DNA from: Azolla caroliniana | Taxonomy: Eukaryota > Plantae > Polypodiophyta | Length of the DNA: 64,000 nucleotides | Direction of reading: 5' to 3' | Assembly (NCBI GenBank): GCA_043228905.1 | Contig: JBHGNT010000011.1 | Span: 7,440,001-7,504,000 of the forward strand | In this document: positions 13,855-63,152 of the stretch, piece by piece | Layout of the letters: every line of letters begins with the position of its first letter | Position numbering within the stretch: the first letter of the stretch is position 1 | The notes under the pieces: model-generated | What the model saw: only the letters and a program-made list of their open reading frames with translations | What the model was told of the DNA's origin: nothing | Databases searched by the model: none | Program-made: the position numbers and the translations under genes

Positions 13855-13856
13855 CA

Positions 13857-22675: not shown

Positions 22676-22682
22676 AAAACTG

Positions 22683-23116
22683 TGTTAACTCTTCGGGCCG
22701 GACAATGGCCTAACACAGGGTGTCCACGGGAGACACTTCACCAAAGGGTGTTACGGCAACCGGATTAGACTTCAACGCTTAATCCGACTTAGTTAAGTTA
22801 CTTATTAGGATCGTCTTTCATAACACGCGTAAGATATAACAATTAAGACAGAACGGCAATTAACACAGAGAGATAACAACGCTTAAGCTTTCATTAATTA
22901 ACCGCTCACTATTACATTGTATCCGAGCCTTTAAATAGGTTTCCGGTCTGTATTACAAAACGGTGCCATCCGCACCTGTTCGGGATTGGTCCGGATCCGG
23001 AACTGCATACCGTCTCCTGTCCGTCCGTCCACACTCATAGCTTAATTACAACCACATTCCTACTACTTAATTAGCTCTCCGTTTCCCACTCTGGACTCCT
23101 TTGCCGGCCGGTAACA
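22683..23116 (-). repeat. 5' LTR of Gypsy-2
   Basis: TGTTA...TAACA, direct repeat of 13421-13854. Confidence 0.95.
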
Positions 23117-23121
23117 CATAT

Positions 23122-41320: not shown

Positions 41321-41695
41321 TGTAAACGATTACTTGCGGAAGCGTTAGAAAACAGAGAAAGTAGGGAATACATAGAGTACACAGGAGAGACAGAGACAAC
41401 AGAACGTAAAAGCTATATTCAAAATGATATAATCAATCTGTCACTTACAACTGTGCTTAGTAGCACTATTTATACAAGTCCTCATGGGATTGACAGAAGT
41501 ATCGCGTACTTCAATGCTCACACGAGCTTCTAACACTTACTACGAGACTATAATTGCCTAGTAGTCTAAACTAATACTAGGCTTCCGGTTACCGATTGGA
41601 TCCAGCTAACCGGCTCCCCAGCTCACTGGCTCTGTTGCTTGCCGGCTCGGTTGCTCACGGCTTACCGATCCGTCTCGCTTGCCGGGTCAGGCTTA
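41321..41695 (-). repeat. Partial LTR of a Copia A-family element (A3)
   Basis: Homologous to A1/A2 LTRs (TATACAAGTCCT, TACTTCAATGCTCA); interrupted by Copia B. Confidence 0.75.
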
Positions 41696-44600
41696 TGTTG
41701 GGAGACAGGTCCCTCCAGATGGGAAGGGAGAAGAACAATGCTGACGAACAAACTCGGCCGAGGCCGATAGGCCCGGTATGAACCGGATGAGGAGTACCCG
41801 GCTACGGAGAGCCGGATGGTGCAGGCCCGGTATGAACCGGATGAGGAGTACCCGGCTACGGAGAGCCGGATGGTGCAGGCCCGGTATGAACCGGATGAGG
41901 AGGTACCCGACTACGGAGAGTCGGATGGTACAGACCCGGTGAGAACCGGATGAAGAGACATATTCGTAAATATGTTTCTGAAAGCCCATCGAGGCTACAT
42001 TTGTAAATAGCCGAAAAGTCATATTAGTATAAATATGACTTAGGGAAAACTTTTAGTTATGGCTGTTGTCATTTTTCTTTTGTTGGTGCAAGAAGAAGAG
42101 AGAGCATGTAATAGTGTACAGAGAGAGTGAGAGAGAGAAAGAGGTCGTTGCCTCTGTTGTAACCGCCGCCTGTGGCGAAGATTGTGAGCACGAGGTCGTT
42201 GCCTCCGTGGACTCACTGTTTTTGTACATTCTTACATAGTGACAGTTTGCAGCCTGTGGACTGCCGTGGTTTTTCCCCTAGTTTGGGGTTTTCCACGTAA
42301 ACCTCCTGTGTAGTGTGTGTGTATCTCCTCTCACTTCGTGTCGTGCATTTGTTTCCCGTTTTCTGCGTATAAAAAGAAGCTCGGTTGTGGCCGAGCCTTG
42401 CGCATAAGGAACGTTGGGTTCTTGTCAAGTGGTATCAGAGCGAAATCGACACAGAAAATGGACGAATCGTTTGGCGGCATGTTCAAGCTCACCGGCTCCA
42501 ACTATTCAGTGTGGAAGTCGAAGATGAGGGACATGCTCGTTGTTAAAGACCTCTGGTTGCCGGTTCAATTCGGGGACAAGAGACCGGACAAAATCAACGC
42601 CGCGATATGGGAGGTGATGCACATGAAGACAACGGCGTACATACGGTGCTTCATCGACATGAGCCTGTACAACAACTTCAATGAAGAGAGCAAGGCTCAT
42701 GAGCTCTGGGAGAAGATCGGCATAATGTTCCAAAACAAAAATGTTGTTAATCAGGTTTCGGTATTCCGGAAGCTAGTAAGACTCCGGTACCAAGATGGCT
42801 CCAGCATGGCGGAGCATATGAATGCCTTCTAGGGGTTGATACACCAGGCAACTTCACTGGAAGTACCTCTCGTGGATGAGGTACTAGCGCTGCTCCTGCT
42901 CGGTTTCCTCCCGGATAGCTGGGAGACGTTGGTTGTCACATTGGGCAACGCCGGGCCGGAAGGAAAACGGTTATCCCTAGCAAGAGTAAAGTCGAGCTTG
43001 CTAGCTGACGAGGCGCGTCGGAAAGACAAAGATACGAGCTCCGACTCCAAAGCGCTTCTTACCGAATCGGAATGTGGAAGACATAGAAACCGTAGTCCCC
43101 AGAACTGGGAGAAGTCGGGGACACGGTCAAAGTCAAGGGGGAGGCCTACTTGCTTCTATTGTGGCAAGCCGGGACACTTCCAAAAGAACTGTCGGCATTT
43201 CCGTAAAGACAAGGAAACCGATGGTACCGATTCGAAGCAAACCCCGGACCGAACGGTAAAGACCGGAATGGTAAAGACCGGAAGGGGACGGACTGGAAGG
43301 GAACGACGGCAATCACGGCAAGCGAAGAAGAGTTGATGCTCATCACCGAGGAGAGTGAAATAAACCTTGCCGGGTAGACTCCGGAGCGTCGTTCCACCTT
43401 ACCCCGGACCGGAAATGCTTCTCATCCTATTGAACCGGTGATCACGGCTGTGTCCGGATGGGGAATGAAGGAACATGCCGAATTGTCGGCATAGGAGACG
43501 TGTGGCTGACAACACCAACCGGATGCAAGTTGCTGCTGAAGGATGTCCGACACGTTCCGGAAGTTCGTCTGAACCTGATATCAGCCGGTCGGCTAGATGA
43601 TGAAGGCTACACAGGTAGCATCCGAAATGGTGTCATGAAGTTCAGGAAAGGGAGCCTGATTGTGGCTCGGGCCCGGAAGGTAAACACGTTGTACCTCATG
43701 AATGCCCGATTATGCCCGGAAGAAGTGAACGTGGCATCCGACACTGCCGGTGAGCTGTGGCACAAGAGGCTGTGTCACATGAGTGAGAACGGGATGAAGA
43801 AGCTTGCAAACGACAACCTCATTCCAGTGAAGAACGTGCACTTAGAGAAGTGCACTGATTGTCTGGCCGGTAAGCAAAACCGGACCTCCTTCCGACCAAG
43901 GCCACCGATGAGACGTAATGCACCACTGGAGTTGGTGCATACGGATGTGTGTCAAGTAGACACGAACTCACATGCCGTTCATAGATGACCACAGCCGGAA
44001 GCTGTGGGCCACACCGTTCATAGATGACCACAGCCGGAAGCTGTGGGCCACACCGTTGAAGACAAAGGATCAGGTGTTATCCATCTTCAAAGAGCTCCAC
44101 GCGAGAGTGGAAAGAGAAACCGGCCGGAAGCTGAAGGCAATTCGAACAGATAACGGAGGAGAGTACCGGGGGCAGTTCGAGGAGTACTGCCGCTCGAAGG
44201 GAATCCGGCTCGAATTTACCATGCCGAAGAGGCCGGAACTAAACGGATTGGCCGAGAGGATGAACCGGACCATAATGGAGAGGGTCCGGAGTATGCTAGC
44301 GCATGCAAAAACTACCCAAGAAGTTTTGGGCTGAGGCACTATCGACGGCAACATATGTGATAAACAGATCACCCTCAGTACCCTTGGACGGAGACACGCC
44401 ACGGAGAGTATGGACCGGTAAGGAAGTGTGCTACCGGCATCTGAGGGTGTTCGGGTGTCTCGCGTACGTGCATGTAGCAAAGGACCGGAGAGGAAAGTTA
44501 GATCCAAAGACCCGGCCATGCATACTCCTCGGTTACGGTGACGATGAGTTCGGCTACCGAGTGTGGGACCCGGTCGACAAGAAGGTATTCCGGAGTCGAG

Positions 44601-46550
44601 ATATTATCTTCATGGAGGACAAGACGCTCGCCGACTGGGAGTCGGAGAAGAAGATAATGAACTCCGAGTCGACCGGTAAGGATAGACTCTACGATGAGCA
44701 GACCCAACCGGCAAGAGACCGGTTAGCACTCGAGGAACTAGCCGGTTACGGTGAGGATACCGAACCGGCAGAAGAAGAAGTAGAGGAAGCTGAGACCGGA
44801 ACCGGTCAAGACCCCGAATCGGATTCGGATGAAGAGCAAATGGAGGAGCCGGTTACCGAAGCCCGAAGACGTAGATATCCTCTCAGAGAGAGAAGGGCGC
44901 CCCGGAGATTTCCGGATGCAGAGCATGTTCTGCTGACCGATGAGGGGGAGCCGGAAAGCTTCAAAGAAGCGAAGGAAGACACCCACAACCGAAAATGGTG
45001 AAGTGCCATGCAGGATGAGATGGATTCCCTGTATGAGAACCATACATACGAATTGGTGGAGCTGCCGAAAGGAAAGCGGGCACTCCGAAACAAGTGGGTG
45101 TACAAGTTGAAACCGGGATATGCCGGCAACCCCCCGAGATACAAAGCCAGGATCGTGGTGAAGGGGTTCCAGTAGACGAAGGGCGTGGACTTCGACGAGA
45201 TATTTGCCCCGGTAGTAAAGATGACCTCCATCCGGACGGTGCTGAGTATAACAGTAAGCATGGACCTCGAGGTAGAGCAGCTGGACGTGAAGACGACATT
45301 CCTTCACGGCGACCTCAAAGAGAAGATCTACATGGAGCAACCGGAAGGATTCGTGGAGAAAGGGAAGGAGCACCTGGTATGCCGGTTGAAGAAGAGCCTG
45401 TACGGACTAAAGCAGGCTCCCCGACAATGGTACCGGAAGTTCGACTCCTTCATGACCGATCAAGGGTACCACAAGACGCAGGCCGATCACTGCGTGTTTG
45501 TGAAGAAGTTCGAAGGAGGGGACTTCCTGATACTCCTCCTGTACGTGGATGACATGTTGATCATCGGACGGGACCAAGTCAAAATACGGATGCTGAAGAA
45601 GGCTCTCAACCGGACCTTCTCAATGAAAGACTTGGGTCCGGCAAGACAGATGTTGGGGATGCACATCATTCGGGACCGGTCAGTGAAGCAATTATGGTTG
45701 TCACAGGAGAAGTATGTGACAAAGGTGCTTCACCGGTTCAACATGTCAGAAGCGAAACCGGTCGGATCGACACTTCCGGCGAACTGTAGGCTATCCGGCA
45801 AGCAAAGCCCGAAGACGAAAGCAGAAAAGGCGGATATAATGAAGATTCCATATGCCTCTGCCGTCGGGAGCTTGATGTACGCAATGGTGTGTACCTGACC
45901 GGATATAGGATACGCAGTCGGAGTGGTGAGCCGGTTCATGAGTAATCCCGGCAAGGAGCACTGGAACGCGGTCAAATGGATACTCCGGTATTTGAAGGGC
46001 ACTTCAAATATGTGTCTCCGATTCGGCTCCAGAAAACCTCAACTGGACGGTTTCACCGATTCGGACATGTCGGCTGATGTGGATACCAGCCGGTCTACAT
46101 CCGGGTATGTAATGACATATGCAGGGGGAGCTGTTTCGTGGCAATCGAGGCTGCAGAAGACGGTTGCATTGTCAACCACGGAGGCGGAGTACATGGCGGC
46201 TGTGGAAGCCGGCAAGGAAATTTTATGGATGAAGGACTTCATCGGAGAGCTCGGTATACGGCAAGAGGAATACCGACTCTATTGCGACAGTCAAAGTGCC
46301 ATCCACCTTGCTAAAAATGCGGCCTACCATTCCCGGACGAAGCATATCCAGCGGAGGTATAACTGGATCCGGGAAAGAGTAGATGACCAGGAGTTCACAC
46401 TGACGAAGATCCACACGGCCGAGAACGGGTCAGATATGCTGACCAAAGTGCTGACACCCGACAAGCTGGATGCATGCCGGAAGAGAATCGGACTGGTAAG
46501 ACACCCCATGTCGGAGTGAAGGGGGAGTTTGTTGGGAGACAGGTCCCTCC
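41696..46550 (+). mobile_element. Copia B, degenerate; 5' LTR 41696-42427, 3' LTR starts 46530 and is interrupted after 21 bp
   Basis: PBS 42430-42441, gag-pol 42458-46519 with stops, PPT GAAGGGGGAG; LTR resumes at 63125-63152. Confidence 0.93.
42458..46519 (+). pseudogene. Copia B gag-pol, multiple stops and frameshifts
   Basis: ORFs 42317-42832, 42836-43336, 43458-43988, 43972-44334, 44303-45001, 45185-45898, 45923-46519. Confidence 0.92.
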
Positions 46551-49500
46551 TGTTGGGATTACGGTCCCTTCGGATGGGATGGTCGGATGTCGGAGATGAA
46601 TGCCGACAAGCCCGGTTTCGGTTCGGAACCGGATGATGAAGACCCCGACTTCGGAGCCGGATGACGAATGTACCCGGAGAGAGATCCGGATGCGGGGACA
46701 TATCTGTGAATATGTTTGCCAAGGGCCTTTAAGGCTATAGTTGTAAATAGCCCTAAAGTCATATGTGTATAAATATGACTTAGGGCAAACAGTTTTGTTG
46801 TTGCTACTTATTTTTCTGTTTTTCCACTCAAGAGGAGTGAAGGGAGAGAGAGCAGCCGTGAGAGAGATAGAGCGTGAGAAAGGAAGAGGTCGACGCCTCT
46901 GTGTAATCCTGCCGCCTGTGGCGAGGACAACGAGCTCAAGGTCGTCGCCTTGCAGCTCGCCGTTGTACATTTCTCTGTGCATAGTTTTGGTTTGGAGTCT
47001 TGTACTCCCGTGGTTTTTTCCCGTACAAGGTTTTCCACGTTAAATCGTGTGTCCACTCTATTTTTCGCATTTCCCCTTTTTTCTGCAACAACGATTCGTG
47101 CGTTCCCTTGGTTGTGGCCGAGAGGTGAAGTTTGGAAAGTGTGATTAATTTCCATCAATTTGGTATCAGAGCGAGTTGCTGCAGAAAATGGAAGGCGGCG
47201 GCAGCGGGCAGCCGGGGATGATGGTGCTGAATGCGCAGAATTACGCCGACTGGAAGATCAAGATGGAGGATCTTCTGATTGTTCGGGACCTGTACGAAGC
47301 ATATCCAGCGGAGGTATAACTGGATCCGGGAAAGAGTAGATGACCAGGAGTTCACACTGACGAAGATCCACACGGCCGAGAACGGGTCAGATATGCTGAC
47401 CAAAGTGCTGACACCCGACAAGCTGGATGCATGCCGGAAGAGAATCGGACTGGTAAGACACCCCATGTCGGAGTGAAGGGGGAGTTTGTTGGGAGACAGG
47501 TCCCTCCTGTTGGGATTACGGTCCCTTCGGATGGGATGGTCAGATGTCGGAGATGAATGCCGACAAGCCCGGTTTCGGTTCGGAACCGGATGATGAAGAC
47601 CCCGACTTCGGAGCCGGATGACGAATGTACCCGGAGAGAGATCCGGATGCGGGGACATATCTGTGAATATGTTTGCCAAGGGCCTTTAAGGCTATAGTTG
47701 TAAATAGCCCTAAAGTCATATGTGTATAAATATGACTTAGGGCAAACAGTTTTGTTGTTGCTACTTATTTTTCTGTTTTTCCACTCAAGAGGAGTGAAGG
47801 GAGAGAGAGCAGCCGTGAGAGAGATAGAGCGTGAGAAAGGAAGAGGTCGACGCCTCTGTGTAATCCTGCCGCCTGTGGCGAGGACAACGAGCTCAAGGTC
47901 ATCGCCTTGCAGCTCGCCGTTGTACATTTCTCTGTGCATAGTTTTGGTTTGGAGTCTTGTACTCCCGTGGTTTTTTCCCGTACAAGGTTTTCCACGTTAA
48001 ATCGTGTGTCCACTCTATTTTTCGCATTTCCCCTTTTTTCTGCAACAACGATTCGTGCGTTCCCTTGGTTGTGGCCGAGAGGTGAAGTTTGGAAAGTGTG
48101 ATTAATTTCCATCAATTTGGTATCAGAGCGAGTTGCTGCAGAAAATGGAAGGCGGCGGCAGCGGGCAGCCGAGGATGATGGTGCTGAATGCGCAGAATTA
48201 CGCCGACTGGAAGATCAAGATGGAGGATCTTCTGATTGTTCGGGACCTGTACGAAGCATATCCAGCGGAGGTATAACTGGATCCGGGAAAGAGTAGATGA
48301 CCAGGAGTTCACACTGACGAAGATCCACACGGCCGAGAACGGGTCAGATATGCTGACCAAAGTGCTGACACCCGACAAGCTGGATGCATGCCGGAAGAGA
48401 ATCGGACTGGTAAGACACCCCATGTCGGAGTGAAGGGGGAGTTTGTTGGGAGACAGGTCCCTCCTGTTGGGATTACGGTCCCTTCGGATGGGATGGTCGG
48501 ATGTCGGAGATGAATGCCGACAAGCCCGGTTTCGGTTCGGAACCGGATGATGAAGACCCCGACTTCGGAGCCGGATGACGAATGTACCCGGAGAGAGATC
48601 CGGATGCGGGGACATATCTGTGAATATGTTTGCCAAGGGCCTTTAAGGCTATAGTTGTAAATAGCCCTAAAGTCATATGTGTATAAATATGACTTAGGGC
48701 AAACAGTTTTGTTGTTGCTACTTATTTTTCTGTTTTTCCACTCAAGAGGAGTGAAGGGAGAGAGAGCAGCCGTGAGAGAGATAGAGCGTGAGAAAGGAAG
48801 AGGTCGACGCCTCTGTGTAATCCTGCCGCCTGTGGCGAGGACAACGAGCTCAAGGTCGTCGCCTTGCAGCTCGCCGTTGTACATTTCTCTGTGCATAGTT
48901 TTGGTTTGGAGTCTTGTACTCCCGTGGTTTTTTCCCGTACAAGGTTTTCCACGTTAAATCGTGTGTCCACTCTATTTTTCGCATTTCCCCTTTTTTCTGC
49001 AACAACGATTCGTGCGTTCCCTTGGTTGTGGCCGAGAGGTGAAGTTTGGAAAGTGTGATTAATTTCCATCAATTTGGTATCAGAGCGAGTTGCTGCAGAA
49101 AATGGAAGGCGGCGGCAGCGGGCAGCCGGGGATGATGGTGCTGAATGCGCAGAATTACGCCGACTGGAAGATCAAGATGGAGGATCTTCTGATTGTTCGG
49201 GACCTGTACGAAGCATATCCAGCGGAGGTATAACTGGATCCGGGAAAGAGTAGATGACCAGGAGTTCACACTGACGAAGATCCACACGGCCGAGAACGGG
49301 TCAGATATGCTGACCAAAGTGCTGACACCCGACAAGCTGGATGCATGCCGGAAGAGAATCGGACTGGTAAGACACCCCATGTCGGAGTGAAGGGGGAGTT
49401 TGTTGGGAGACAGGTCCCTCCTGTTGGGATTACGGTCCCTTCGGATGGGATGGTCAGATGTCGGAGATGAATGCCGACAAGCCCGGTTTCGGTTCGGAAC

Positions 49501-52500
49501 CGGATGATGAAGACCCCGACTTCGGAGCCGGATGACGAATGTACCCGGAGAGAGATCCGGATGCGGGGACATATCTGTGAATATGTTTGCCAAGGGCCTT
49601 TAAGGCTATAGTTGTAAATAGCCCTAAAGTCATATGTGTATAAATATGACTTAGGGCAAACAGTTTTGTTGTTGCTACTTATTTTTCTGTTTTTCCACTC
49701 AAGAGGAGTGAAGGGAGAGAGAGCAGCCGTGAGAGAGATAGAGCGTGAGAAAGGAAGAGGTCGACGCCTCTGTGTAATCCTGCCGCCTGTGGCGAGGACA
49801 ACGAGCTCAAGGTCATCGCCTTGCAGCTCGCCGTTGTACATTTCTCTGTGCATAGTTTTGGTTTGGAGTCTTGTACTCCCGTGGTTTTTTCCCGTACAAG
49901 GTTTTCCACGTTAAATCGTGTGTCCACTCTATTTTTCGCATTTCCCCTTTTTTCTGCAACAACGATTCGTGCGTTCCCTTGGTTGTGGCCGAGAGGTGAA
50001 GTTTGGAAAGTGTGATTAATTTCCATCAATTTGGTATCAGAGCGAGTTGCTGCAGAAAATGGAAGGCGGCGGCAGCGGGCAGCCGAGGATGATGGTGCTG
50101 AATGCGCAGAATTACGCCGACTGGAAGATCAAGATGGAGGATCTTCTGATTGTTCGGGACCTGTACGAAGCATATCCAGCGGAGGTATAACTGGATCCGG
50201 GAAAGAGTAGATGACCAGGAGTTCACACTGACGAAGATCCACACGGCCGAGAACGGGTCAGATATGCTGACCAAAGTGCTGACACCCGACAAGCTGGATG
50301 CATGCCGGAAGAGAATCGGACTGGTAAGACACCCCATGTCGGAGTGAAGGGGGAGTTTGTTGGGAGACAGGTCCCTCCTGTTGGGATTACGGTCCCTTCG
50401 GATGGGATGGTCGGATGTCGGAGATGAATGCCGACAAGCCCGGTTTCGGTTCGGAACCGGATGATGAAGACCCCGACTTCGGAGCCGGATGACGAATGTA
50501 CCCGGAGAGAGATCCGGATGCGGGGACATATCTGTGAATATGTTTGCCAAGGGCCTTTAAGGCTATAGTTGTAAATAGCCCTAAAGTCATATGTGTATAA
50601 ATATGACTTAGGGCAAACAGTTTTGTTGTTGCTACTTATTTTTCTGTTTTTCCACTCAAGAGGAGTGAAGGGAGAGAGAGCAGCCGTGAGAGAGATAGAG
50701 CGTGAGAAAGGAAGAGGTCGACGCCTCTGTGTAATCCTGCCGCCTGTGGCGAGGACAACGAGCTCAAGGTCGTCGCCTTGCAGCTCGCCGTTGTACATTT
50801 CTCTGTGCATAGTTTTGGTTTGGAGTCTTGTACTCCCGTGGTTTTTTCCCGTACAAGGTTTTCCACGTTAAATCGTGTGTCCACTCTATTTTTCGCATTT
50901 CCCCTTTTTTCTGCAACAACGATTCGTGCGTTCCCTTGGTTGTGGCCGAGAGGTGAAGTTTGGAAAGTGTGATTAATTTCCATCAATTTGGTATCAGAGC
51001 GAGTTGCTGCAGAAAATGGAAGGCGGCGGCAGCGGGCAGCCGGGGATGATGGTGCTGAATGCGCAGAATTACGCCGACTGGAAGATCAAGATGGAGGATC
51101 TTCTGATTGTTCGGGACCTGTACGAAGCATATCCAGCGGAGGTATAACTGGATCCGGGAAAGAGTAGATGACCAGGAGTTCACACTGACGAAGATCCACA
51201 CGGCCGAGAACGGGTCAGATATGCTGACCAAAGTGCTGACACCCGACAAGCTGGATGCATGCCGGAAGAGAATCGGACTGGTAAGACACCCCATGTCGGA
51301 GTGAAGGGGGAGTTTGTTGGGAGACAGGTCCCTCCTGTTGGGATTACGGTCCCTTCGGATGGGATGGTCAGATGTCGGAGATGAATGCCGACAAGCCCGG
51401 TTTCGGTTCGGAACCGGATGATGAAGACCCCGACTTCGGAGCCGGATGACGAATGTACCCGGAGAGAGATCCGGATGCGGGGACATATCTGTGAATATGT
51501 TTGCCAAGGGCCTTTAAGGCTATAGTTGTAAATAGCCCTAAAGTCATATGTGTATAAATATGACTTAGGGCAAACAGTTTTGTTGTTGCTACTTATTTTT
51601 CTGTTTTTCCACTCAAGAGGAGTGAAGGGAGAGAGAGCAGCCGTGAGAGAGATAGAGCGTGAGAAAGGAAGAGGTCGACGCCTCTGTGTAATCCTGCCGC
51701 CTGTGGCGAGGACAACGAGCTCAAGGTCGTCGCCTTGCAGCTCGCCGTTGTACATTTCTCTGTGCATAGTTTTGGTTTGGAGTCTTGTACTCCCGTGGTT
51801 TTTTCCCGTACAAGGTTTTCCACGTTAAATCGTGTGTCCACTCTATTTTTCGCATTTCCCCTTTTTTCTGCAACAACGATTCGTGCGTTCCCTTGGTTGT
51901 GGCCGAGAGGTGAAGTTTGGAAAGTGTGATTAATTTCCATCAATTTGGTATCAGAGCGAGTTGCTGCAGAAAATGGAAGGCGGCGGCAGCGGGCAGCCGA
52001 GGATGATGGTGCTGAATGCGCAGAATTACGCCGACTGGAAGATCAAGATGGAGGATCTTCTGATTGTTCGGGACCTGTACGAAGCATATCCAGCGGAGGT
52101 ATAACTGGATCCGGGAAAGAGTAGATGACCAGGAGTTCACACTGACGAAGATCCACACGGCCGAGAACGGGTCAGATATGCTGACCAAAGTGCTGACACC
52201 CGACAAGCTGGATGCATGCCGGAAGAGAATCGGACTGGTAAGACACCCCATGTCGGAGTGAAGGGGGAGTTTGTTGGGAGACAGGTCCCTCCTGTTGGGA
52301 TTACGGTCCCTTCGGATGGGATGGTCGGATGTCGGAGATGAATGCCGACAAGCCCGGTTTCGGTTCGGAACCGGATGATGAAGACCCCGACTTCGGAGCC
52401 GGATGACGAATGTACCCGGAGAGAGATCCGGATGCGGGGACATATCTGTGAATATGTTTGCCAAGGGCCTTTAAGGCTATAGTTGTAAATAGCCCTAAAG

Positions 52501-53040
52501 TCATATGTGTATAAATATGACTTAGGGCAAACAGTTTTGTTGTTGCTACTTATTTTTCTGTTTTTCCACTCAAGAGGAGTGAAGGGAGAGAGAGCAGCCG
52601 TGAGAGAGATAGAGCGTGAGAAAGGAAGAGGTCGACGCCTCTGTGTAATCCTGCCGCCTGTGGCGAGGACAACGAGCTCAAGGTCGTCGCCTTGCAGCTC
52701 GCCGTTGTACATTTCTCTGTGCATAGTTTTGGTTTGGAGTCTTGTACTCCCGTGGTTTTTTCCCGTACAAGGTTTTCCACGTTAAATCGTGTGTCCACTC
52801 TATTTTTCGCATTTCCCCTTTTTTCTGCAACAACGATTCGTGCGTTCCCTTGGTTGTGGCCGAGAGGTGAAGTTTGGAAAGTGTGATTAATTTCCATCAA
52901 TTTGGTATCAGAGCGAGTTGCTGCAGAAAATGGAAGGCGGCGGCAGCGGGCAGCCGAGGATGATGGTGTTGAATGCGCAGAATTACGCCGACTGGAAGAT
53001 CAAGATGGAGGATCTTCTGATTGTTCGGGACCTGTACGAA
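46337..53040 (+). repeat. Tandem array, 7 x 957 bp (B pol end + PPT + 21 bp B LTR + 607-bp C LTR + PBS + C gag start)
   Basis: ORF track repeats every 957 bp; C LTRs start at 46551, 47508, 48465, 49422, 50379, 51336, 52293; junction microhomology ACGAA. Confidence 0.97.
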
Positions 53041-56000
53041 CCGATTGACAGGTCGGAAATACCGAAGGGAGTACTTGAGTCGGAATGGAGGCTTCTGAAC
53101 CGGAAAGCCGTTGCAACCATTCGGCAATACGTAGACGTGAGCGTTCTACAACATGTGGCGAACGACATCAACGCATATGAGATGTGGCGGAAGCTGTCGG
53201 GCCTCTACGAGAGGAAGAATGCGTTGAACCGGACCTCCCTGATGAGGAAGATAGTGAACCTCAAGTACCGGGACGGCGAGAGTATGGTGGAACACGTAAG
53301 CACGTTCATGGGATTCGTGAACCAGCTTGCGGCGATCAAGTTCCCGCTGGAGGATGCAATGCAAGCCATCATTCTGATGTGTACATTGCCGGAAAGCTTG
53401 GAGAACTTGGTGGTGACTCTCAGCACCTCCTGCACCGAAGATAACTTGTCCCTACAAACGGTAAAGACAAGTATTTTAAACGAAGAAGCGCGTCGGAGAG
53501 ATAAAGAACCGGCCTCCGACTCGAAGGCGCTGCTTACCGAATCGGAACGGGGAAGACAATGGAACCGGAGTCCGCAAAGACGGGAGAAGTCGGGGACCCG
53601 GTCGCAGTCAAGAGGAAGACCCACATGCTTCCACTGTGGGAAGCCGGGGCACTTCCAGAAGAATTGTCGGCATTACCGAAAGGACAACGGAGCCGACGAC
53701 ACCGATTCGAAGAGGTCACCGGAGAGAAACGGTGCATACCGGGGAGCCACGGACCGGAGAGGTCCGGATCGGCGAGGGCAGGACCGGAAAGGAACGACGG
53801 CACTCGCGGCAAGTGAGGAAGAAATCATGCTCATCACCGAAGAAGGTGAACTAAACATTGCCGGCGATGAGACGACCTGGGTGGTCGATTCCGGAGCATC
53901 GTTCCACCTGACCCCGGAGAGAAGATACTTCTCATCCTACACATCCGGTGAGCATGGCTGTGTTCGGATGGGAAATGAAGGTACGTGCCGGATTGCCGGC
54001 ATAGGAGACGTGTGGTTGACAACCCCGACCGGATGCAAAATGCTGTTGAAGGATGTCCGACACGTTCCGGAGGTTCGATTGAACCTGATTTCGGCCGGGA
54101 GGCTAGACGATGAAGGCTACACAGGCAGCATCCGGAACAGCGTAATGAAGTTCAGCAAGGGGAGCCTGATAGTGGCTCGGGCCCGGAAAGTCAACACACT
54201 GTACCTGATGAATGCCCGGTTATGTCCGGAAGAGCTGAATGTGGCAGCCTACACTACCGGTGAGCTGTGGCACAAAAGACTGTGCCACATGAGTGAGAAG
54301 GGGATGAAGAGGCTTGCAGAAGACAACCTTATTCCAGTGAAGCATGTGCACCTGGAGAAGTGCACCGACTGCCTGGCCGGTAAGCAGAACCGAACCTCCT
54401 TCCACTCAAGGCCACCGACGAGACGTAGCGCACCATTGGAGTTGGTGCACACTGATGTGTGTCAGGTAGAAACCAAGTCACATGGCGGAGCCCAATACTT
54501 CGTAACATTCATAGATGATCATAGCCGAAAACTGTGGACGGCACCGCTGAAGACAAAGGACCAAGTGTTGTGCGTCTTCAAAGAACTCCACGCGAGAGTG
54601 GAAAGGGAATCCGGCAAGAAGCTGAAAGCGATACGAGCGGATAACGGAGGGGAATACCGGGGGCAGTTCGCGGAGTACTGTCGCTCGAAGGGAATCCGGC
54701 TCGAGTTTACTGTGCCGAAGACGCCGGAACTGAACGGGCTGGCCGAGAGGATGAACCGGACCATAATGGAGAGGGTCTGGAGTATGCTGGCGCATGCGAA
54801 ATTACCCAAGGGGTTTTGGGCTGAGGCGATGTCGACGGCGACATACGTGATAAACAGATCACCCTCAGTACCTTTGGACGGAGACACGCCGCAGAGAGTG
54901 TGGACCGGTAGGGAAGTATCCTACCGGCATCTGAAGGTGTTCGGGTGTCTCGCATATGTGCATGTGGCTAAGGACCGGAGAGGAAAGCTAGATCCAAAGA
55001 CCCGGCCATGCATATTCCTCGGTTACGGCGATGACGAGTTCGGCTACCGAGTATGGGACCCGGTCGACAAGAAGATATTCCGGAGTCGTGATATCATCTT
55101 CATGGAGAACAAGACACTCGCCGACTGGGAGTCAGAGAAGAAGATGAAGAGCTCCAAGTCGACCGGTGAGGATAAACTCTACGAGGAGCAGTCTCGACCG
55201 GCAAGGGACCGGTTAACACTCGAAGATCCGGCCGAAGACAGTGAAGAAACAGAACCGGCCGAAGAAGATGAAAATGACACCGGAACCGGCCCCGATCCCG
55301 AAATGGATTCGGATGAAGAAGAATCGGAAGAACCGGTTACCGAAGCTCCGGAACGGAGATATCCTCTAAGAGAGAGAAGGGCTCCCCGGAGATTTCCGGA
55401 ACCAGAGCACGTGCTGCTAACCGACGAGGGGGAGCCGGAGAGCTTTGAAGAAGCGAAGCATGACACCCATAGCCGCAGGTGGTTAAGTGCCATGCAGGAG
55501 GAGATGGATTCCCTGCATGAGAACCACACATATGAACTTGTGGAGCTGCCGAAAGGAAAACGGGCACTCCGTAACAAGTGGGTGTTCAAGCTGAAACCGG
55601 GAGATGCCGGAAACCCTCCGAGATACAAAGCCAGGATCGTGGTGAAGGGGTTTCAGCAGAAGAAGGGCGTCGACTTCGACGAGATATTTGCCCCGGTAGT
55701 GAAGATGACCTCCATCCGGACGGTGCTGAGCATAGCGGCAAGCATGGACCTCGAGGTAGAACAGATGGACGTGAAGACGGCATTCCTTCACGGTGACCTC
55801 GAAGAAGAGATCTACATGCAGCAACCGGAAGGATTCGAGAAGAAAGGGAAGGAGCACCTGGTATGCCGGTTGAAGAAGAGCCTTTACGGTCTGAAGCAGG
55901 CTCCCCAGCAATGGTACCGGAAGTTCGACTCCTTCATGACAGATGAAGGGTACCACAAAACGCAGTCCGATCACTGCGTGTTTGTGAAGAAGTTCGAAGG

Positions 56001-56157
56001 AGGAGACTTTCTAATACTCCTCCTGTACGTGGACGACATGTTGATCGTCGGACGGGACCAGGTCAAGATACGGATGCTGAAGAAGGCTCTGTTGGGATTT
56101 CGGTCCCTCCGGATGGGATGTCCGGAGATGAATGACGGCAAGCCCGGTTGCGGTTAC

Positions 56158-56285
56158 GGAGCCGGATGATGAAGACCCCGGCTACGGAGCCGGATGATGA
56201 AGACCCCGGTTACGGAGCCGGATGATGAAGACCCCGGCTACGGAGCCGGATGATGAAGACCCCGGTTACGGAGCCGGATGATGAA
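56158..56285 (+). repeat. 28-bp tandem repeat in the D LTR U3 (4+ copies; also in the 3' LTR)
   Basis: GGAGCCGGATGATGAAGACCCCGG(C/T)TAC. Confidence 0.9.
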
Positions 56286-56810
56286 TGTACCCGGAGAGAG
56301 ATCCGGATGCGGAGACATATTTGTGAATATGTTTGCCAAGAGCCCTTGAGGCTATATTTGTAAATAGCCCGAAAGTCATATGTGTATAAATATGACTTAG
56401 GGCAAACAGTTTTACAGTTGCTTCTTATTTTTTCTGTTTTCCCACTCAAGAGGAGTGAAGTGTGAGCAGCCGTGAGAGAGAGAGAGAGAGATAGAGCGCG
56501 AGCGACGAAGAGGTAGACGCCTCTGTGTATTTCCGCCGCCTGTGGCGAGGACAGCGAGCTCAAGGTCGTCGCCTTGTAGCTCGCCATTGTATACTTCTCT
56601 GTATAGTGTTGATTTGGAGTCTTATACTCCCGTGGTTTTTCCCGTCTAGGGTTTTCCACGTTAATCCCTGTGTACCCGCGCTTTGTTTCTCTTTGTGGTT
56701 CCTATTTTCTGCTCCATCGATTCGCGCTTACTCGGTTGTGGCCGAGTGGTGGAGGTGAATAGAAGCGTCTATTCTCAACAAACTGGTATCAGAGCGAACT
56801 GCTGCAGAAA

Positions 56811-59800
56811 ATGGAAGGCGGCGGCAGCGGGCAGCCGGGGATGATGGTGCTGAATGCACAGAATTACGCCGACTGGAAGATCAAGATGGAGGATCTTCTG
56901 ATTGTTCGGGACCTGTACGAACCGATTGACAGGTCGGAAATACCGAAGGGGGTACTTGAGTCGGAGTGGAAGCTCCTGAACCGGAAAGCCGTAGCGACGA
57001 TCCGACAATATGTCGATGTAAGCGTCCTACAACATGTGGCGAACGACACCAACGCATATGAGATGTGGAAGAAGCTGTCGGGCCTCTACGAGAGGAAGAA
57101 TGCGCTGAACCGGACCTCCCTGATGAGGAAGATTGTGAATCTCAAGTACCGGGACGGCGAGAGTATGGTGGAACACGTAAGCACGTTCATGGGATTCGTG
57201 AACCAGCTTGCGGCGATCAAGTTCCCACTGGAGGATGCAATGCAAGCCATCATTCTGATGTGTACATTGCCGGAAAGCTGGGAAAACTTGGTGGTAACTC
57301 TCAGCACCTCCTGCACCGAAGATAACTTGTCCCTACAAACGGTAAAGAAAAGTATTTTGAACGAAGAAGCGCGTCGGAGAGATAAGGAACCGGCCTCCGA
57401 CCCGAAGATGCTGTTTACCGAATCGGATCGGGGAAGACAATGGAACCGGAGTCCGCAAAGACGGGAGAAGTCGGGGACCCGGTCGCAGTCAAGAGGAAGG
57501 CCCACATGCTTCCACTGTGGGAAGCCGGGGCACTTCCGAAAGAATTGTCGGCATTACCGAAAAGACAATGGAACCGACAACACCGATTCGAAGAAGTCAC
57601 CGGAGAGAAACGGTGCATACCGGGGAGCCACGGACCGGAATGGTTCGGACAGGCGAGGACAGGACCGGAAAGGAACAACGGCACTCGCGGCAAGTGAAGA
57701 GGAGATCATGCTCATCACCGAAGAAGGTGAACTAAACATTGCCGGCGATGAGACGACCTGGGTGGTCGATTCCGGAGCATCGTTCCACCTGACCCCGGAG
57801 AGAAGATACTTCTCATCCTACACAGCCGGCGAGCATGGCTGTGTTCGGATGGGAAACGAAGGTACGTGCCGGATTGCCGGCATAGGAGACGTGTGGTTGA
57901 CAACCCCGACCGGATGCAAAATGCTGCTGAAGAATGTCCGACACGTTCCGGAGGTCCGACTGAACCTGATTTCGGCCGGGAGGCTAGATGATGAAGGCTA
58001 CACGGGTAGCATCCGGAACGGTGCCATGAAGTTCAGCAAGGGGAGCTTGATAGTGGCTCGGGCCCGGAAGGTCAACACACTGTACCTGATGAATGCCTGG
58101 TTATGTCCGGAAGAGCTGAATGTGGCAGCCGACACTGCCGGTGAGCTGTGGCACAAAAGACTGTGCCACATGAGTGAGAAGGGGATGAAGAGGCTTGCAG
58201 AAGACAACCTTATTCCAGTGAAGCATGTGCACCTGGAGAAGTGCACCGATTGCCTGGCCGGTAAGCAGAACCGAACCTCCTTCCACTCAAGGCCACCGAC
58301 GAGACGTAGCGCACCATTGGAGTTGGTGCACACTGATGTGTGTCAGGTAGAAACGAAGTCACATGGCGGAGCCCAGTACTTCGTAACATTCATTGATGAT
58401 CACAGCCGGAAGCTGTGGACGTCACCGTTGAAGACAAAGGACCAAGTATTGTCCGTCTTCAAAGAACTCCACGCGAGAGTGGAAAGGGAATCCGGCAAGA
58501 AGCTGAAAGCGATACGAGCGGATAACGGAGGGGAATACCGGGGGCAGTTCGCGGAGTACTGTCGCTCGAAGGGAATCCGGCTCGAGTTTACTGTGCCGAA
58601 GACGCCGGAACTGAACGGGCTGGCCGAGAGGATGAACCGGACCATAATGGAGAGGGTCCGGAGTATGCTGGCACATGCGAAATTACCCAAGGGATTTTGG
58701 GCTGAGGCAATGTCGACGGCGACATATGTGATAAACAGATCACCCTCAGTACCTTTGGACGGAGACACGCCGCAGAGAGTGTGGACCGGTAGGGAAGTAT
58801 CCTACCGGCATCTGAAGGTGTTCGGGTGTCTCGCATACGTGCATGTGGCAAAGGACCGGAGAGGAAAGCTAGATCCAAAGACCCGGCCATGCATATTCCT
58901 CGGTTACGGCGACGACGAGTTTGGCTACCGAGTATGGGACCCGGTCGACAAGAAGATATTCAGGAGTCGAGACATCATCTTCATGGAGGACAAGACACTC
59001 GCCGACTGGGAGTCGGAGAAGAAGATGAAGAGCTCCAAGTCGACCGGTGAGGATCAACTCTACGAGGAGCAGTCCCGACCGGCAAGGGACCGGTTAGCAC
59101 TCGAGGATCCGGCCGAAGACGGTGAAGAAACAGAACCGGCCGAAGAAGATGAAAATGATACCGGAACCGGCCCCGATCCCGAAATGGATTCGGATGAAGA
59201 AGAAGAATCGGAAGAACCGGTTACCGAAGCTCCGGAACGGAGATATCCTCTAAGAGAGAGAAGGGCCCCCCGGAGATTTCCGGAACCAGAGCACGTGCTG
59301 CTAACCGACGAGGGGGAGCCGGACAGCTTTGAAGAAGCAAAGCATGACACCCAGAGCCGCAGGTGGTTGAGTGCCATGCAGGACGAGATGGATTCCCTGC
59401 ATGAGAACCACACATATGAACTTGTGGAGTTGCCGAAAGGAAAACGGGCACTCCGTAACAAGTGGGTGTTCAAGCTGAAACCGGGAGATGCCGGAAACCC
59501 CCCGAGATACAAAGCCAGGATCGTGGTGAAGGGGTTTCAGCAGAAGAAGGGCGTCGACTTCGACGAGATATTTGCCCCGGTAGTGAAGATGACCTCCATC
59601 CGGACGGTGCTGAGCATAGCGGCAAGTATGGACCTCGAGGTAGAACAGATGGACGTGAAGACGGCATTCCTTCACGGTGACCTCGAAGAAGAGATCTACA
59701 TGCAGCAACCGGAAGGATTCGAGAAGAAAGGGAAGGAGCACCTGGTATGCCGGTTGAAGAAGAGCCTTTACGGACTGAAGCAGGCTCCCCGGCAATGGTA

Positions 59801-60887
59801 CCGGAAGTTCGACTCCTTCATGACCGACGAAGGGTACCACAAAACGCAGTCTGATCACTGCGTGTTTGTGAAGAAGTTCGAAGGAGGAGACTCTCTAATA
59901 CTCCTCCTGTACGTGGACGACATGTTGATCGTCGGACGGGACCAGGTCAAGATACGGATGCTGAAGAAGGCACTTCACCGAACCTTCTCAATGAAGGACC
60001 TGGGTCCGGCGAGGCAAATACTAGGGATGCACATCATCCGGGACCGGAAGAAGAAGCAGTTGTGGCTGTCACAGGAGAAGTACGTGACGAAGATGCTTCA
60101 CCGGTTCAACATGTCGGAAGCAAGACCGGTCGGGTCAACCCTACCGGCAAACTGCAGGTTGTCCAGCAAGCAAAGCCCCAAGACAAAGGCTGAGAAGGAG
60201 GACATGATGAAAGTACCATATGCCTCTGCCGTCGGAAGCTTGATGTACGCAATGGTGTGTACAAGACCGGACATAGGATATGCAGTTGGAGTGGTGAGCC
60301 GGTACATGAGCAATCCCGGCAAAGAGCACTGGAAGGCGGTCAAGTGGATACTCCGATACCTGAAGGGCACGGCAAACGTGTGCCTCCGATTCGGCTCCGG
60401 TAAACCCGAATTCGACGGCTTTACCGATTCGGATATGTCGGCTGATGCAGATACCAGCCGGTCCACATCAGGGTATGTGATGACGTATGCAGGTGGAGCT
60501 GTTTCGTGGCAGTCGAGGCTGCAGAAGACGGTTGCGTTGTCAACCACGGAGGCGGAGTACATGGCGGCTGTTGAAGCCGGCAAGGAAATAATATGGATGA
60601 AGGACTTCATTAGAGAGCTCGGTATCCAGCAGGAGGAGTACCGACTCTACTGCGACAGTCAGAGTGCCATCCACCTTGCGAAGAACGCGGCCTACCATTC
60701 CCGGACGAAACACATCCAGCGTAGATACCACTGGATCCGGGAGAGGATAGAAGACGAGGAGTTCGTGCTGACGAAGATCCACACGGACGAGAACGGGTCG
60801 GATATGCTGACCAAGGTGCTCACACCCGACAAGCTGGAAGCATGCCGGAAGAGGATCGGGTTGGAGAGACATCCCATGCCGAAGTGA
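56811..60887 (+). CDS. Copia D gag-pol polyprotein, 1358 aa
   Basis: CFHCGKPGH, WVVDSGAS, WHKRLCH, DNGGE, LLYVDD, FTDSD, TKHI in a single ORF. Confidence 0.97.
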   Translation: MEGGGSGQPGMMVLNAQNYADWKIKMEDLLIVRDLYEPIDRSEIPKGVLESEWKLLNRKAVATIRQYVDVSVLQHVANDTNAYEMWKKLSGLYERKNALNRTSLMRKIVNLKYRDGESMVEHVSTFMGFVNQLAAIKFPLEDAMQAIILMCTLPESWENLVVTLSTSCTEDNLSLQTVKKSILNEEARRRDKEPASDPKMLFTESDRGRQWNRSPQRREKSGTRSQSRGRPTCFHCGKPGHFRKNCRHYRKDNGTDNTDSKKSPERNGAYRGATDRNGSDRRGQDRKGTTALAASEEEIMLITEEGELNIAGDETTWVVDSGASFHLTPERRYFSSYTAGEHGCVRMGNEGTCRIAGIGDVWLTTPTGCKMLLKNVRHVPEVRLNLISAGRLDDEGYTGSIRNGAMKFSKGSLIVARARKVNTLYLMNAWLCPEELNVAADTAGELWHKRLCHMSEKGMKRLAEDNLIPVKHVHLEKCTDCLAGKQNRTSFHSRPPTRRSAPLELVHTDVCQVETKSHGGAQYFVTFIDDHSRKLWTSPLKTKDQVLSVFKELHARVERESGKKLKAIRADNGGEYRGQFAEYCRSKGIRLEFTVPKTPELNGLAERMNRTIMERVRSMLAHAKLPKGFWAEAMSTATYVINRSPSVPLDGDTPQRVWTGREVSYRHLKVFGCLAYVHVAKDRRGKLDPKTRPCIFLGYGDDEFGYRVWDPVDKKIFRSRDIIFMEDKTLADWESEKKMKSSKSTGEDQLYEEQSRPARDRLALEDPAEDGEETEPAEEDENDTGTGPDPEMDSDEEEESEEPVTEAPERRYPLRERRAPRRFPEPEHVLLTDEGEPDSFEEAKHDTQSRRWLSAMQDEMDSLHENHTYELVELPKGKRALRNKWVFKLKPGDAGNPPRYKARIVVKGFQQKKGVDFDEIFAPVVKMTSIRTVLSIAASMDLEVEQMDVKTAFLHGDLEEEIYMQQPEGFEKKGKEHLVCRLKKSLYGLKQAPRQWYRKFDSFMTDEGYHKTQSDHCVFVKKFEGGDSLILLLYVDDMLIVGRDQVKIRMLKKALHRTFSMKDLGPARQILGMHIIRDRKKKQLWLSQEKYVTKMLHRFNMSEARPVGSTLPANCRLSSKQSPKTKAEKEDMMKVPYASAVGSLMYAMVCTRPDIGYAVGVVSRYMSNPGKEHWKAVKWILRYLKGTANVCLRFGSGKPEFDGFTDSDMSADADTSRSTSGYVMTYAGGAVSWQSRLQKTVALSTTEAEYMAAVEAGKEIIWMKDFIRELGIQQEEYRLYCDSQSAIHLAKNAAYHSRTKHIQRRYHWIRERIEDEEFVLTKIHTDENGSDMLTKVLTPDKLEACRKRIGLERHPMPK

Positions 60888-63152
60888 AGGGGGAGTTTGT
60901 TGGGATTTCGGTCCCTCCGGATGGGATGTCCGGAGATGAATGACGGCAAGCCCGGTTGCGGTTACGGAGCCGGATGATGAAGACCCCGGCTACGGAGCCG
61001 GATGATGAAGACCCCGGTTACGGAGCCGGATGATGAAGACCCCGGCTACGGAGCCGGATGATGAAGACCCTGGTTACGGAGCCGGATGATGAATGTACCC
61101 GGAGAGAGATCCGGATGCGGAGACATATTTGTGAATATGTTTGCCAAGAGCCCTTGAGGCTATATTTGTAAATAGCCCGAAAGTCATATGTGTATAAATA
61201 TGACTTAGGGCAAACAGTTTTACAGTTGCTTCTTATTTTTTCTGTTTTCCCACTCAAGAGGAGTGAAGTGTGAGCAGCCGTGAGAGAGAGAGAGAGAGAT
61301 AGAGCGCGAGCGACGAAGAGGTAGACGCCTCTGTGTATTTCCGCCGCCTGTGGCGAGGACAGCGAGCTCAAGGTCGTCGCCTTGTAGCTCGCCATTGTAT
61401 ACTTCTCTGTATAGTGTTGATTTGGAGTCTTATACTCCCGTGGTTTTTCCCGTCTAGGGTTTTCCACGTTAATCCCTGTGTACCCGCGCTTTGTTTCTCT
61501 TTGTGGTTCCTATTTTCTGCTCCATCGATTCGCGCTTACTCGGTTGTGGCCGAGTGGTGGAGGTGAATAGAAGCGTCTATTCTCAACAGGCTCTTCACCG
61601 AACCTTCTCAATGAAGGACCTGGGTCCGGCGAGGCAAATACTAGGGATGCACATCATCCGGGACCGGAAGAAGAAGCAGTTGTGGCTGTCACAGGAGAAG
61701 TACGTGACAAAGGTGCTTCATCGGTTCAACATGTCGGAAGCAAGACCGGTCGGATCAACACTCCCGACAAACTGCAAGCTGTCTAGCAAGCAAAGCCCCA
61801 AGACAAAGGCTGAGAAGGAGGACATGATGAAAGTACCATATGCCTCTGCCATCGGGAGCTTGATGTACGCAATGGTGTGTACCCGACCGGACATAGGATA
61901 TGCAGTCGGAGTGGTGAGCCGGTACATGAGCAATCCCAGCAAAGAGCATTGGAACGCGGCCAAGTGGATACTCCGATACCTGAAGGGCACAGCAAACGTG
62001 TGCCTCCGTTTCGGCTCCGGTAAACCCGAACTGGACGGCTTCACCGATTCGGATATGTCGGCTGATGCAGATACCAGCCGGTCCACATCAGGGTATGTGA
62101 TGACGTATGCAGGGGGAGCTGTTTCATGGCAGTCGAGGCTGCAGAAGACGGTTGCGTTGTCAACCACGGAGGCGGAGTACATGGTGGCTGTTGAAGCCAG
62201 CAAGGAAATAATATGGATGAAGGACTTCATTAGAGAGCTCGGTATCCGGCAAGAGGAGTACCGACTCTACTGCGACAGTCAGAGTGCAATCCACCTTGCG
62301 AAGAACGCGGCCTATCACACACGGACGAAGCACATCCAGCGAAGATATCACTGGATCCGGGAAAGGATAGAAGACAAGGAGTTCGTGCTGACGAAGATCC
62401 ACACGGACGAGAACGGGTCGGATATGCTGACCAAGGTGCTCACACCCGACAAGCTGGAAGCATGCCGGAAGAGGATCGGATTGGAGAGACATCCCATGCC
62501 GAAGTGAAGGGGGAGTTTGTTGGGATTACGGTCCCTTCGGATGGGATGGTCGGATGTCGGAGATGAATGCCGACAAGCCCGGTTTCGGTTCGGAACCGGA
62601 TGATGAAGACCCCGATTTCGGAGCCGGATGACGAATGTACCCGGAGAGAGATCCGGATGCGGGGACATATCTGTGAATATGTTTGCCAAGGGCCTTTAAG
62701 GCTATAGTTGTAAATAGCCCTAAAGTCATATGTGTATAAATATGACTTAGGGCAAACAGTTTTGTTGTTGCTACTTATTTTTCTGTTTTTCCACTCAAGA
62801 GGAGTGAAGGGAGAGAGAGCAGCCGTGAGAGAGATAGAGCGTGAGAAAGGAAGAGGTCGACGCCTCTGTGTAATCCCGCCGCCTGTGGCGAGGACAGCGA
62901 GCTCAAGGTCGTCGCCTTGCAGCTCGCCGTTGTACATTTCTCTGTGCATAGTTTTGGTTTGGAGTCTTGTACTCCCGTGGGTTTTTCCCGTACAGGGTTT
63001 TCCACGTTAAATCGTGTGTCCACTCTATTTTTCGCATTTCCCCTTTTTTCTGCAACAACGATTCGTGCGTTCCCTTGGTTGTGGCCAAGAGGTGAAGTTT
63101 GGAAAGTGTGATTAATTTCCATCACCTCCAGATGGGAAGGGAGAAGAACAAT

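What the first reader, a model, noticed from the sequence alone, without database searches (positions are those of the whole stretch)
46337..53040. Birth of a chimeric tandem-array TRIM or satellite at a nested-insertion junction
Seen: a 957-bp segment spanning the junction where Copia C inserted 21 bp into the Copia B 3' LTR was amplified 7 times. The breakpoint uses 5-bp microhomology ACGAA (B pol 46337, C gag 53036). Each repeat reads LTR(C)-PBS-short non-coding internal-PPT(B)-TGTTGGG..-LTR(C), the full cis architecture of a non-autonomous mini-element, with both parents still flanking it. The gag start runs out of frame into a stop after about 43 codons. Inference: read-through transcripts could be mobilised in trans by the intact relative D, yielding a TRIM with a 628-bp LTR. 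This route to TA-TRIMs needs no internal deletion.
Basis: partly seen in the sequence, partly recalled or inferred. Interest (0 to 1): 0.72.

Follow-up and report, generated by a model that had tools for sequence, protein, structure and literature searches.

The report
Seven-copy array of nested retrotransposon junction
Seven near-identical 957-base copies of the joint where one plant jumping gene landed inside another lie head to tail at one spot of the genome; they likely arose by a local repair duplication and then stepwise unequal recombination, and although each copy has the layout of a mini jumping gene, none is found elsewhere in the assembly.

Summary
Observation confirmed: 7 x 957-bp head-to-tail units (46337-53035, six new junctions) span the point where Copia C inserted 21 nt into the 3' LTR of Copia B (TSD CCTCC), with a 5-bp shared word (ACGAA) at the breakpoint. 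Both parents still flank the array. Only four sites vary. All are C>T-type changes at CG/CHG, and they fit a homoplasy-free history of four successive duplications (1-2-3-5-7). That points to a young, likely methylated array grown in place by DNA recombination. A short-read contig carries the junction. The TRIM reading is not supported as a state of fact: junction, chimeric LTR start and a PBS-PPT pair of this spacing occur only here in 523 Mb, and all three published TRIM criteria fail. 'Needs no internal deletion' cannot be shown, because recombination plus deletion gives the same sequence. The kind is known (maize CRM1TR/CRM4TR, 5-nt-mediated CR duplications, composite satellites), and this scan noted similar arrays in fungal genomes. 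Its value is as a clean, datable snapshot of a composite repeat at birth.

The parts
41696..42427 (+). Copia B 5' LTR (732 bp, TG..CA), with an internal 54-bp x 3.5 repeat
42428..46529 (+). Copia B internal region: PBS 42430, decayed gag-pol with several stops, PPT about 46516-46529
46337..46341 (+). ACGAA in B RNase H: left breakpoint word
46337..53035 (+). Array of 7 x 957-bp units: B RNase H end, PPT, 21 nt of B LTR, C LTR, PBS, C gag start; 4 variable sites; dimeric (1914-bp) pattern
46530..46550 (+). First 21 nt of B 3' LTR, ending in the left TSD CCTCC of C; repeated in every unit
46551..47157 (+). C 5' LTR copy 1 (607 bp); further copies start at 47508, 48465, 49422, 50379, 51336, 52293
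47158..47486 (+). 329-bp internal part of the first mini-element-like unit: PBS 47161, gag ATG 47188 (43-aa ORF), junction, RNase H remnant, PPT
47294..47298 (+). First new gag/RNase H junction (ACGAA); five more at 957-bp steps
52930..56089 (+). Copia C gag-pol, 5' part, interrupted in RT by D; right breakpoint word ACGAA at 53036-53040
56090..61588 (+). Copia D: LTRs 691 bp (690 of 691 identical), TSD GGCTC, one 1358-aa ORF (56811-60884) with gag, protease, integrase, RT and RNase H motifs
61589..63124 (+). Copia C 3' part: rest of RT/RNase H, PPT, 3' LTR 62518-63124
63125..63152 (+). Right TSD CCTCC and 23-nt remnant of B 3' LTR, cut off by a deletion

Best explanation
This is a single-locus array of seven 957-bp copies of a nested Copia/Copia insertion junction, likely seeded by one microhomology-mediated tandem duplication and likely grown stepwise by unequal exchange between misaligned units, and its mini-element layout is likely a by-product with no sign of movement. 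Shown: C inserted into B's 3' LTR, so B's RNase H end and PPT lie directly before C's LTR, PBS and gag start; the repeated block runs between two copies of ACGAA; no copy exists elsewhere in the assembly. Inferred: a break or stalled fork was repaired by annealing ACGAA in C gag to ACGAA in B RNase H on the sister, which gave two units; 957-bp homology then let the array grow 2 to 3 to 5 to 7, the last two steps copying a dimer, with methyl-cytosine decay between steps. Any duplication that spans PPT-LTR-PBS of two same-strand nested elements yields LTR-PBS-remnant-PPT-LTR, so the layout needs no selection for mobility.
For: Period, sharp ends and exact 5-bp word; 0.8% chance of 5 or more shared bases. 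All 7 LTR copies share three variants (LTR positions 360, 380, 478) that C's 3' LTR lacks. Two of them are absent from 7 of 7 relatives checked and the third is present in 2 of 7. So all copies descend from C's own 5' LTR after it aged in place. The RNase H/PPT part is B-type, and B and C differ at 13% of this region. The four variable sites fit 4 duplications and 4 mutations without homoplasy; 85 of 2000 column shuffles allowed such a history. All four are C>T-type at CG or CHG (3e-5 against uniform substitution). The junction has 6 of 6 matches in the array at 0 and at up to 3 mismatches; the chimeric LTR start 7 of 7; PBS-PPT at 285-315 nt 6 of 6. One 79-base contig of run X1 matches 47269-47340 without a difference and starts at the first junction-specific 31-mer. 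Precedents: 5-nt-mediated tandem duplication of nested maize CR elements (PMC4806543); CRM1TR/CRM4TR (PMC3648361).
Against: The seeding step cannot be told from a two-step route (rival 1). The ordering control is weak: 111 of 420 orderings of the seven units also allow a homoplasy-free history. Given four transitions at C/G, all four at CG/CHG has p = 0.04 only. Methylation was not measured. Copy number was not checked with spanning reads; 3478 bp match perfectly at a 1914-bp shift, and this assembly holds at least one false duplication at a gap. The X1 contig has only 30 letters on the gag side, one short of the tool's bridging rule, and X1 may be the source sample.
Confidence: 0.75

Rival explanations
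1. Two-step seed. Unequal recombination between the related pol genes of C and B first made a roughly 5-kb tandem (LTR-gag-pol-PPT-LTR). A deletion between the two ACGAA words then shrank it to 957 bp, and growth went on as in the main reading. This is the internal-deletion route that the first reader says is not needed.
For: It gives the identical final sequence (reasoning). The family forms full-length three-LTR tandems (L029/L030, period 4746, no gap) and internally deleted copies (L024, L028). PMC3648361 proposes deletion, then gene conversion.
Against: It needs two rare events in place of one. B and C pol are only 87% identical. No intermediate is in the assembly.
Confidence: 0.1
2. The junction is real but the copy number is partly an assembly error, for example one dimer written twice, so that the true array has 3-5 units.
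For: Units 1/3/5 and 2/4 are identical, with 3478 bp perfect at a 1914-bp shift. Three of 14 loci L019-L032 hold 100-N gaps, and L023 shows a false 1.5-kb duplication at one.
Against: The window has no N. Units 6 and 7 carry private states, and the pattern is tree-like and methylation-typed. The junction itself is in a short-read contig.
Confidence: 0.07
3. A mobile TA-TRIM: units are transcribed LTR to LTR, packaged by the abundant C/D family, and the array is, or yields, a reverse-transcribed concatemer.
For: TG..CA ends, PBS and PPT are present in order in each unit. A C-type LTR 27-mer has 478 exact matches in the genome, and D has one long ORF and nearly identical LTRs. Template switching and concatenated transcripts are proposed for Cassandra arrays (PMC7215508).
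Against: No copy elsewhere. The array has no TSD of its own and is collinear with both parents. Variants accumulated between duplications. Only 133 nt from PBS start to the junction remain, so packaging signals may be missing (inference from recalled Ty1 biology, untested).
Confidence: 0.04
4. A 957-bp circle was excised through ACGAA, amplified by rolling circle in one event and recombined back into the locus.
For: The circle junction would be the same ACGAA joint. Rolling-circle amplification is a recognised route (PMC5932611; PMC3648361). A dimeric circle could explain the last steps.
Against: One event would give identical units. The four variants are nested and need at least four duplications separated by mutations.
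Confidence: 0.04

Closest known systems
CRM1TR and CRM4TR of maize (PMC3648361; part 1 of 6 and passages read)
   Same: Local tandem repeats made wholly of LTR-retrotransposon sequence around the LTR and its downstream region; about 1-kb-scale monomers; origin proposed by illegitimate recombination, possibly from nested related elements; growth by DNA recombination.
   Different: Those are gypsy-derived, with 39-187 full monomers, partial LTRs, no single-step microhomology found and parents not in place. Here the source is copia, there are 7 copies with a whole LTR, PBS and PPT, an exact 5-bp word, and both parents still flank the array.
5-nt-mediated duplications among nested CR elements in maize centromere 10 (PMC4806543; passages read)
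   Same: A 5-nt match joins the downstream part of one element to the upstream part of a related one; tandem duplication attributed to alternative end joining; higher-order repeats from adjacent duplication.
   Different: There a 22.7-kb single duplication and a roughly 162-nt apparent one; no multi-copy array with a mini-element layout.
TA-TRIMs and Cassandra arrays (PMC4717578 passages; PMC7215508 passages; PMC13570524 passages and section 38)
   Same: LTR-internal-LTR-internal arrangement with shared LTRs, PBS and PPT.
   Different: Those are arrays of an already mobile small family with dispersed TSD-flanked copies. Here there is no dispersed copy and no TSD around the array, coding remnants persist, and a free unit would be 1585 bp.
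Tandem LTR-retrotransposon structures (PMC11899658; parts 1 and 4 of 6 read)
   Same: Shared internal LTRs, likely copy-number-variable by recombination.
   Different: Their units are whole elements from a single insertion. Here the unit is a two-family junction fragment.
Composite satellite monomers from 'TE graveyards' (hypothesis, PMC12628747 passages); TE dimers expanding by unequal exchange (PMC5932611 passages)
   Same: A monomer joined from two nested TEs, tandemised in TE-dense DNA.
   Different: The hypothesis concerns degraded, unassignable pieces. This case is young, with breakpoints and order of growth readable.

Membership tests
TRIM (criteria of PMC4717578) | Terminal direct repeats with PBS and PPT around a short internal part | tested here: met
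   628-bp repeat, PBS 47161, PPT about 47473-47486, 329-bp internal part. That the PBS matches tRNA-iMet is recalled, not tested.
TRIM (criteria of PMC4717578) | Element under 1,500 bp | tested here: not met
   628+329+628 = 1585 bp (coordinates; criterion)
TRIM (criteria of PMC4717578) | At least two copies, each with a different TSD | tested here: not met
   Junction, chimeric LTR start and PBS-PPT spacing only in the array
TRIM (criteria of PMC4717578) | No retrotransposon protein sequence | tested here: not met
   tblastn with D's polyprotein: 58 RNase H codons at 86% and 37 gag codons at 100% (E 2e-34 and 1e-23 in a one-sequence search)
TA-TRIM | Three or more LTRs alternating with internal parts | tested here: met
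   7 LTR copies, 6 internal parts
TA-TRIM | Array of a mobile TRIM family, flanked by its own TSD | tested here: not met
   The array runs into B pol on the left and C gag on the right; the only TSD (CCTCC) belongs to C's insertion
TA-TRIM | Transcribed and mobilised in trans | not testable with these tools
   No RNA holder listed; no eccDNA data
Retrotransposon-derived tandem repeat (CRM1TR/CRM4TR type) | Head-to-tail monomers wholly derived from LTR retrotransposons at one locus | tested here: met
Retrotransposon-derived tandem repeat (CRM1TR/CRM4TR type) | Tens to hundreds of monomers (satellite scale) | tested here: not met
   7 units, 6.7 kb
Retrotransposon-derived tandem repeat (CRM1TR/CRM4TR type) | Centromeric or pericentromeric position | not tested
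   The window is a dense nest of LTR elements; the centromere position is unknown
Tandem LTR-RT (PMC11899658) | Repeat unit is a whole LTR plus internal region of one element | tested here: not met
   The unit has a 329-bp two-family internal part
Ty1/copia (parents B, C, D) | gag-protease-integrase-RT order, TG..CA LTRs, 5-bp TSD | tested here: met
   Pfam Retrotran_gag_2, Pol_BBD, rve, RVT_2 in this order for C and D; gag and RVT_2 pieces for B; TSDs of C and D. B's TSD is lost. The copia lineage was not determined.

The most novel reading that the evidence does not exclude
The locus is the birthplace of a non-autonomous family by duplication across a nested junction: each unit is transcribed from one LTR to the next, is packaged by the abundant C/D-family machinery, and has already produced 1.6-kb or multi-LTR insertions with a 628-bp chimeric LTR in other individuals or at low frequency. 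The tandem array would then come before the dispersed element, the reverse of the usual TA-TRIM order.
Probability: 0.06. Interest if true: 0.6.

Novelty: new member of a known kind. Interest (0 to 1): 0.3.

Why it matters
As it stands it is a tidy worked example of something the literature proposes but rarely sees intact: a composite repeat monomer born at a nested-insertion junction, with both parents, the exact breakpoint and the order of growth (1-2-3-5-7, ending in a dimeric higher-order pattern) readable. It makes population-level predictions (alleles with 2, 3 or 5 units). If units ever moved, it would show that arrays can precede and seed TRIM-like families; nothing here shows that.

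Tried and rejected
(1) A second case in the genome: L023 looked like a 1537-bp duplication across another nested junction, but its two copies are separated by 100 Ns, so it is an overlap artefact; rejected. L031 also has a gap. (2) Other short LTR arrays of the family: the first 100 of 478 LTR matches give 47 neighbour spacings under 12 kb, the shortest 2564 bp; the other 378 were not listed. A search for short elements over a wide range of internal lengths could not be run; only 285-315 nt was tested. (3) Expression: no RNA holder listed; no evidence either way. (4) Population spread: contigs of X2, X3 and X4 showed only parental pieces at the junction (X5 laid only, uninformative). Contigs drop rare variants, so this is not absence. 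(5) Copy number from contig depth: the junction contig has depth 75 beside others at 20 and 28 in X1; depth is not a copy number, so it was not used. (6) A splice origin of the junction: no GT..AG at any cut within ACGAA on either strand (read); rejected. (7) Internal deletion of C alone: the unit holds B-type RNase H and B's 21 nt; rejected. (8) Absolute dating was not attempted, since no rate for this organism is known. (9) Seven literature searches found no paper that describes a PBS/PPT-complete array born by duplication across a nested junction; most subscription papers are outside the library, and no supplements were read.
Full report
Setting. The window is a gap-free 64-kb nest of LTR retrotransposons in a 523-Mb assembly. 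Earlier scan notes call the genome probably a fern; I did not test this. Around the finding, three same-strand Ty1/copia elements are nested. B (5' LTR 41696-42427) is decayed. C sits 21 nt inside B's 3' LTR with TSD CCTCC. D sits in C's RT with TSD GGCTC, has LTRs identical at 690 of 691 positions and one 1358-aa ORF with gag, protease, integrase and RT domains. Over the last 930 bases of pol, C and D are 95.5% identical and B and C 86.9%. B's 3' LTR resumes after C for 23 nt beyond the TSD and is then cut off by a deletion into another copia-type sequence.

A 957-bp period runs from 46337 to 53040, with seven whole units and sharp ends. The block starts at ACGAA in B's RNase H and ends at ACGAA in C's gag. 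The shared word is exactly 5 bp, a length reached or exceeded by 0.8% of 200,000 random B/C joins. Read from an LTR, each unit is a 628-bp chimeric repeat (21 nt of B, 607 nt of C), PBS, 37 gag codons running into 6 out-of-frame codons and a stop, the last 58 codons of B's RNase H, and the PPT. The internal part is therefore coding remnant.

It formed in place, after C inserted. Array LTR copy 1 differs from C's 3' LTR at 6 of 607 sites. Against seven related LTRs, three of these are new on the 5' side and shared by all seven array copies; one of the three also occurs in 2 of 7 relatives. So the copies descend from C's own 5' LTR after it had aged. Every unit also carries B's RNase H end and the C-in-B junction with its TSD, which exist only here.

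It grew in steps. Four sites vary among the units, with patterns GAGAGAG, GAGAGGG, GAGAGAA and CCCCCCT. The shortest history without repeated mutation has four duplications (1 to 2, 2 to 3, 3 to 5, 5 to 7; the last two copy a dimer) with a mutation after each. Such a history was possible for 85 of 2000 independent column shuffles but for 111 of 420 reorderings of the units, so the support is moderate. All four changes are C>T-type, two at CG and two at CHG. This has probability 3e-5 against uniform substitution and 0.04 given four transitions at C/G. It suggests real mutations in methylated DNA (inference). By counts per lineage (C about 3 per 607 bp on the 3' side, array 0-3 per 957 bp, D 1 per 691-bp pair) the array is likely several-fold younger than C and of the same order as D; the numbers are very small.

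Is it real? One contig of run X1 (79 bases) matches 47269-47340 without a difference. It holds 25 gag-only bases, the shared word and the RNase H side, and it starts exactly at the first junction-specific 31-mer. It falls one letter short of the tool's bridging rule, and X1 may be the source sample. No such piece was listed for X2, X3 or X4. The junction is thus supported outside the assembly, but the copy number is not. 3478 bp match perfectly at a dimer shift, 3 of 14 loci L019-L032 contain 100-N gaps, and one of them carries a false duplication that at first looked like a second case.

No sign of movement. In the whole assembly the junction matches 6 times at 0 and at up to 3 mismatches, the chimeric LTR start 7 times, and PBS followed by PPT at 285-315 nt 6 times, always in the array. 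The family is large and young: 478 exact matches of a C-type LTR 27-mer. Among the 100 listed, 47 neighbour spacings are under 12 kb, mostly 4.7 kb, and none is under 2564 bp. One is a gap-free three-LTR full-length tandem. A potential helper is thus plausible, but there is no product. The unit fails the three TRIM criteria of PMC4717578 (size, dispersed TSD-flanked copies, no coding remnant), while it has the layout of one.

Mechanism. Most likely (0.75) a single microhomology-mediated duplication followed by unequal exchange. The mini-element layout follows from geometry: any duplication that spans PPT-LTR-PBS between same-strand nested elements produces it. Inflated copy number (0.07), a retrotransposed concatemer (0.04) and one rolling-circle event (0.04) are the other rivals.

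Comparison. Maize CRM1TR and CRM4TR are LTR-derived local tandem repeats whose authors suggest nested insertions and illegitimate recombination (PMC3648361). Maize centromere 10 shows 5-nt-mediated joins and a tandem duplication among nested CR elements (PMC4806543). Composite monomers from nested TEs are a stated hypothesis (PMC12628747). Shared-LTR tandems are common in plants (PMC11899658; PMC4717578; PMC13570524; PMC7215508). Polymerase-theta-type tandem duplications in plant heterochromatin are documented (PMC13031928, passages). Two earlier scan notes report related copia arrays in fungal genomes (unchecked). In seven searches I found no paper on a PBS/PPT-complete array born across a two-family junction; supplements were not read, and most subscription papers are not held.

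Verdict. Real, ordinary in kind, unusually legible. New member of a known kind; interest 0.3. The bold reading (array first, mobile family later) has probability about 0.06.

Noticed in passing
window 63125-63153; L025 2027-2401: B's 3' LTR is cut after 44 nt and joined to the internal part of a minus-strand copia. That element's other LTR lies in L025 (93.6% to window 41321-41696), so the nest is four deep and a deletion removed B's right end.
   Followed up: partly
L029/L030 (G000:C3, about 9904800-9914900): Gap-free full-length three-LTR tandem of the C family, period 4746 bp, 99.8% identity: a standard tandem LTR-RT.
   Followed up: partly
L023 493-3666: Apparent 1.5-kb tandem duplication across a nested junction is an assembly overlap at a 100-N gap. 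Other duplications reported from this assembly should be checked for this.
   Followed up: yes
window 43975-44057; 41769-41957; 56151-56285 and 60959-61093; 23612-23735: Small tandem duplications are frequent here: a perfect 39-bp duplication in B's integrase, 54-bp x 3.5 in B's LTR, 28-bp x 4.8 in D's LTRs, 18-bp x 6.7 in another copia LTR.
   Followed up: no
window 23524-29034, 13421-23119, 32741-38376: Further TSD-flanked LTR elements: a copia with a 1453-aa open frame and LTRs 99.2% alike, a gypsy with LTRs 97.5% alike that hosts another element, and a minus-strand copia with LTRs 94.9% alike.
   Followed up: partly
L025 5819-6500 (about 6 kb right of the window): Array of roughly 32-bp units with palindromic cores; it may be the palindrome array of the methyltransferase-carrying DNA transposon in earlier notes on this genome (not checked).
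   Followed up: no
L024; L028: Internally deleted relatives: a C-family copy with LTRs 3639 bp apart (about 1.1 kb missing) and a B-family copy lacking about 0.7 kb.
   Followed up: no
window 2422-2502: Perfect (AG) x 40 microsatellite.
   Followed up: no
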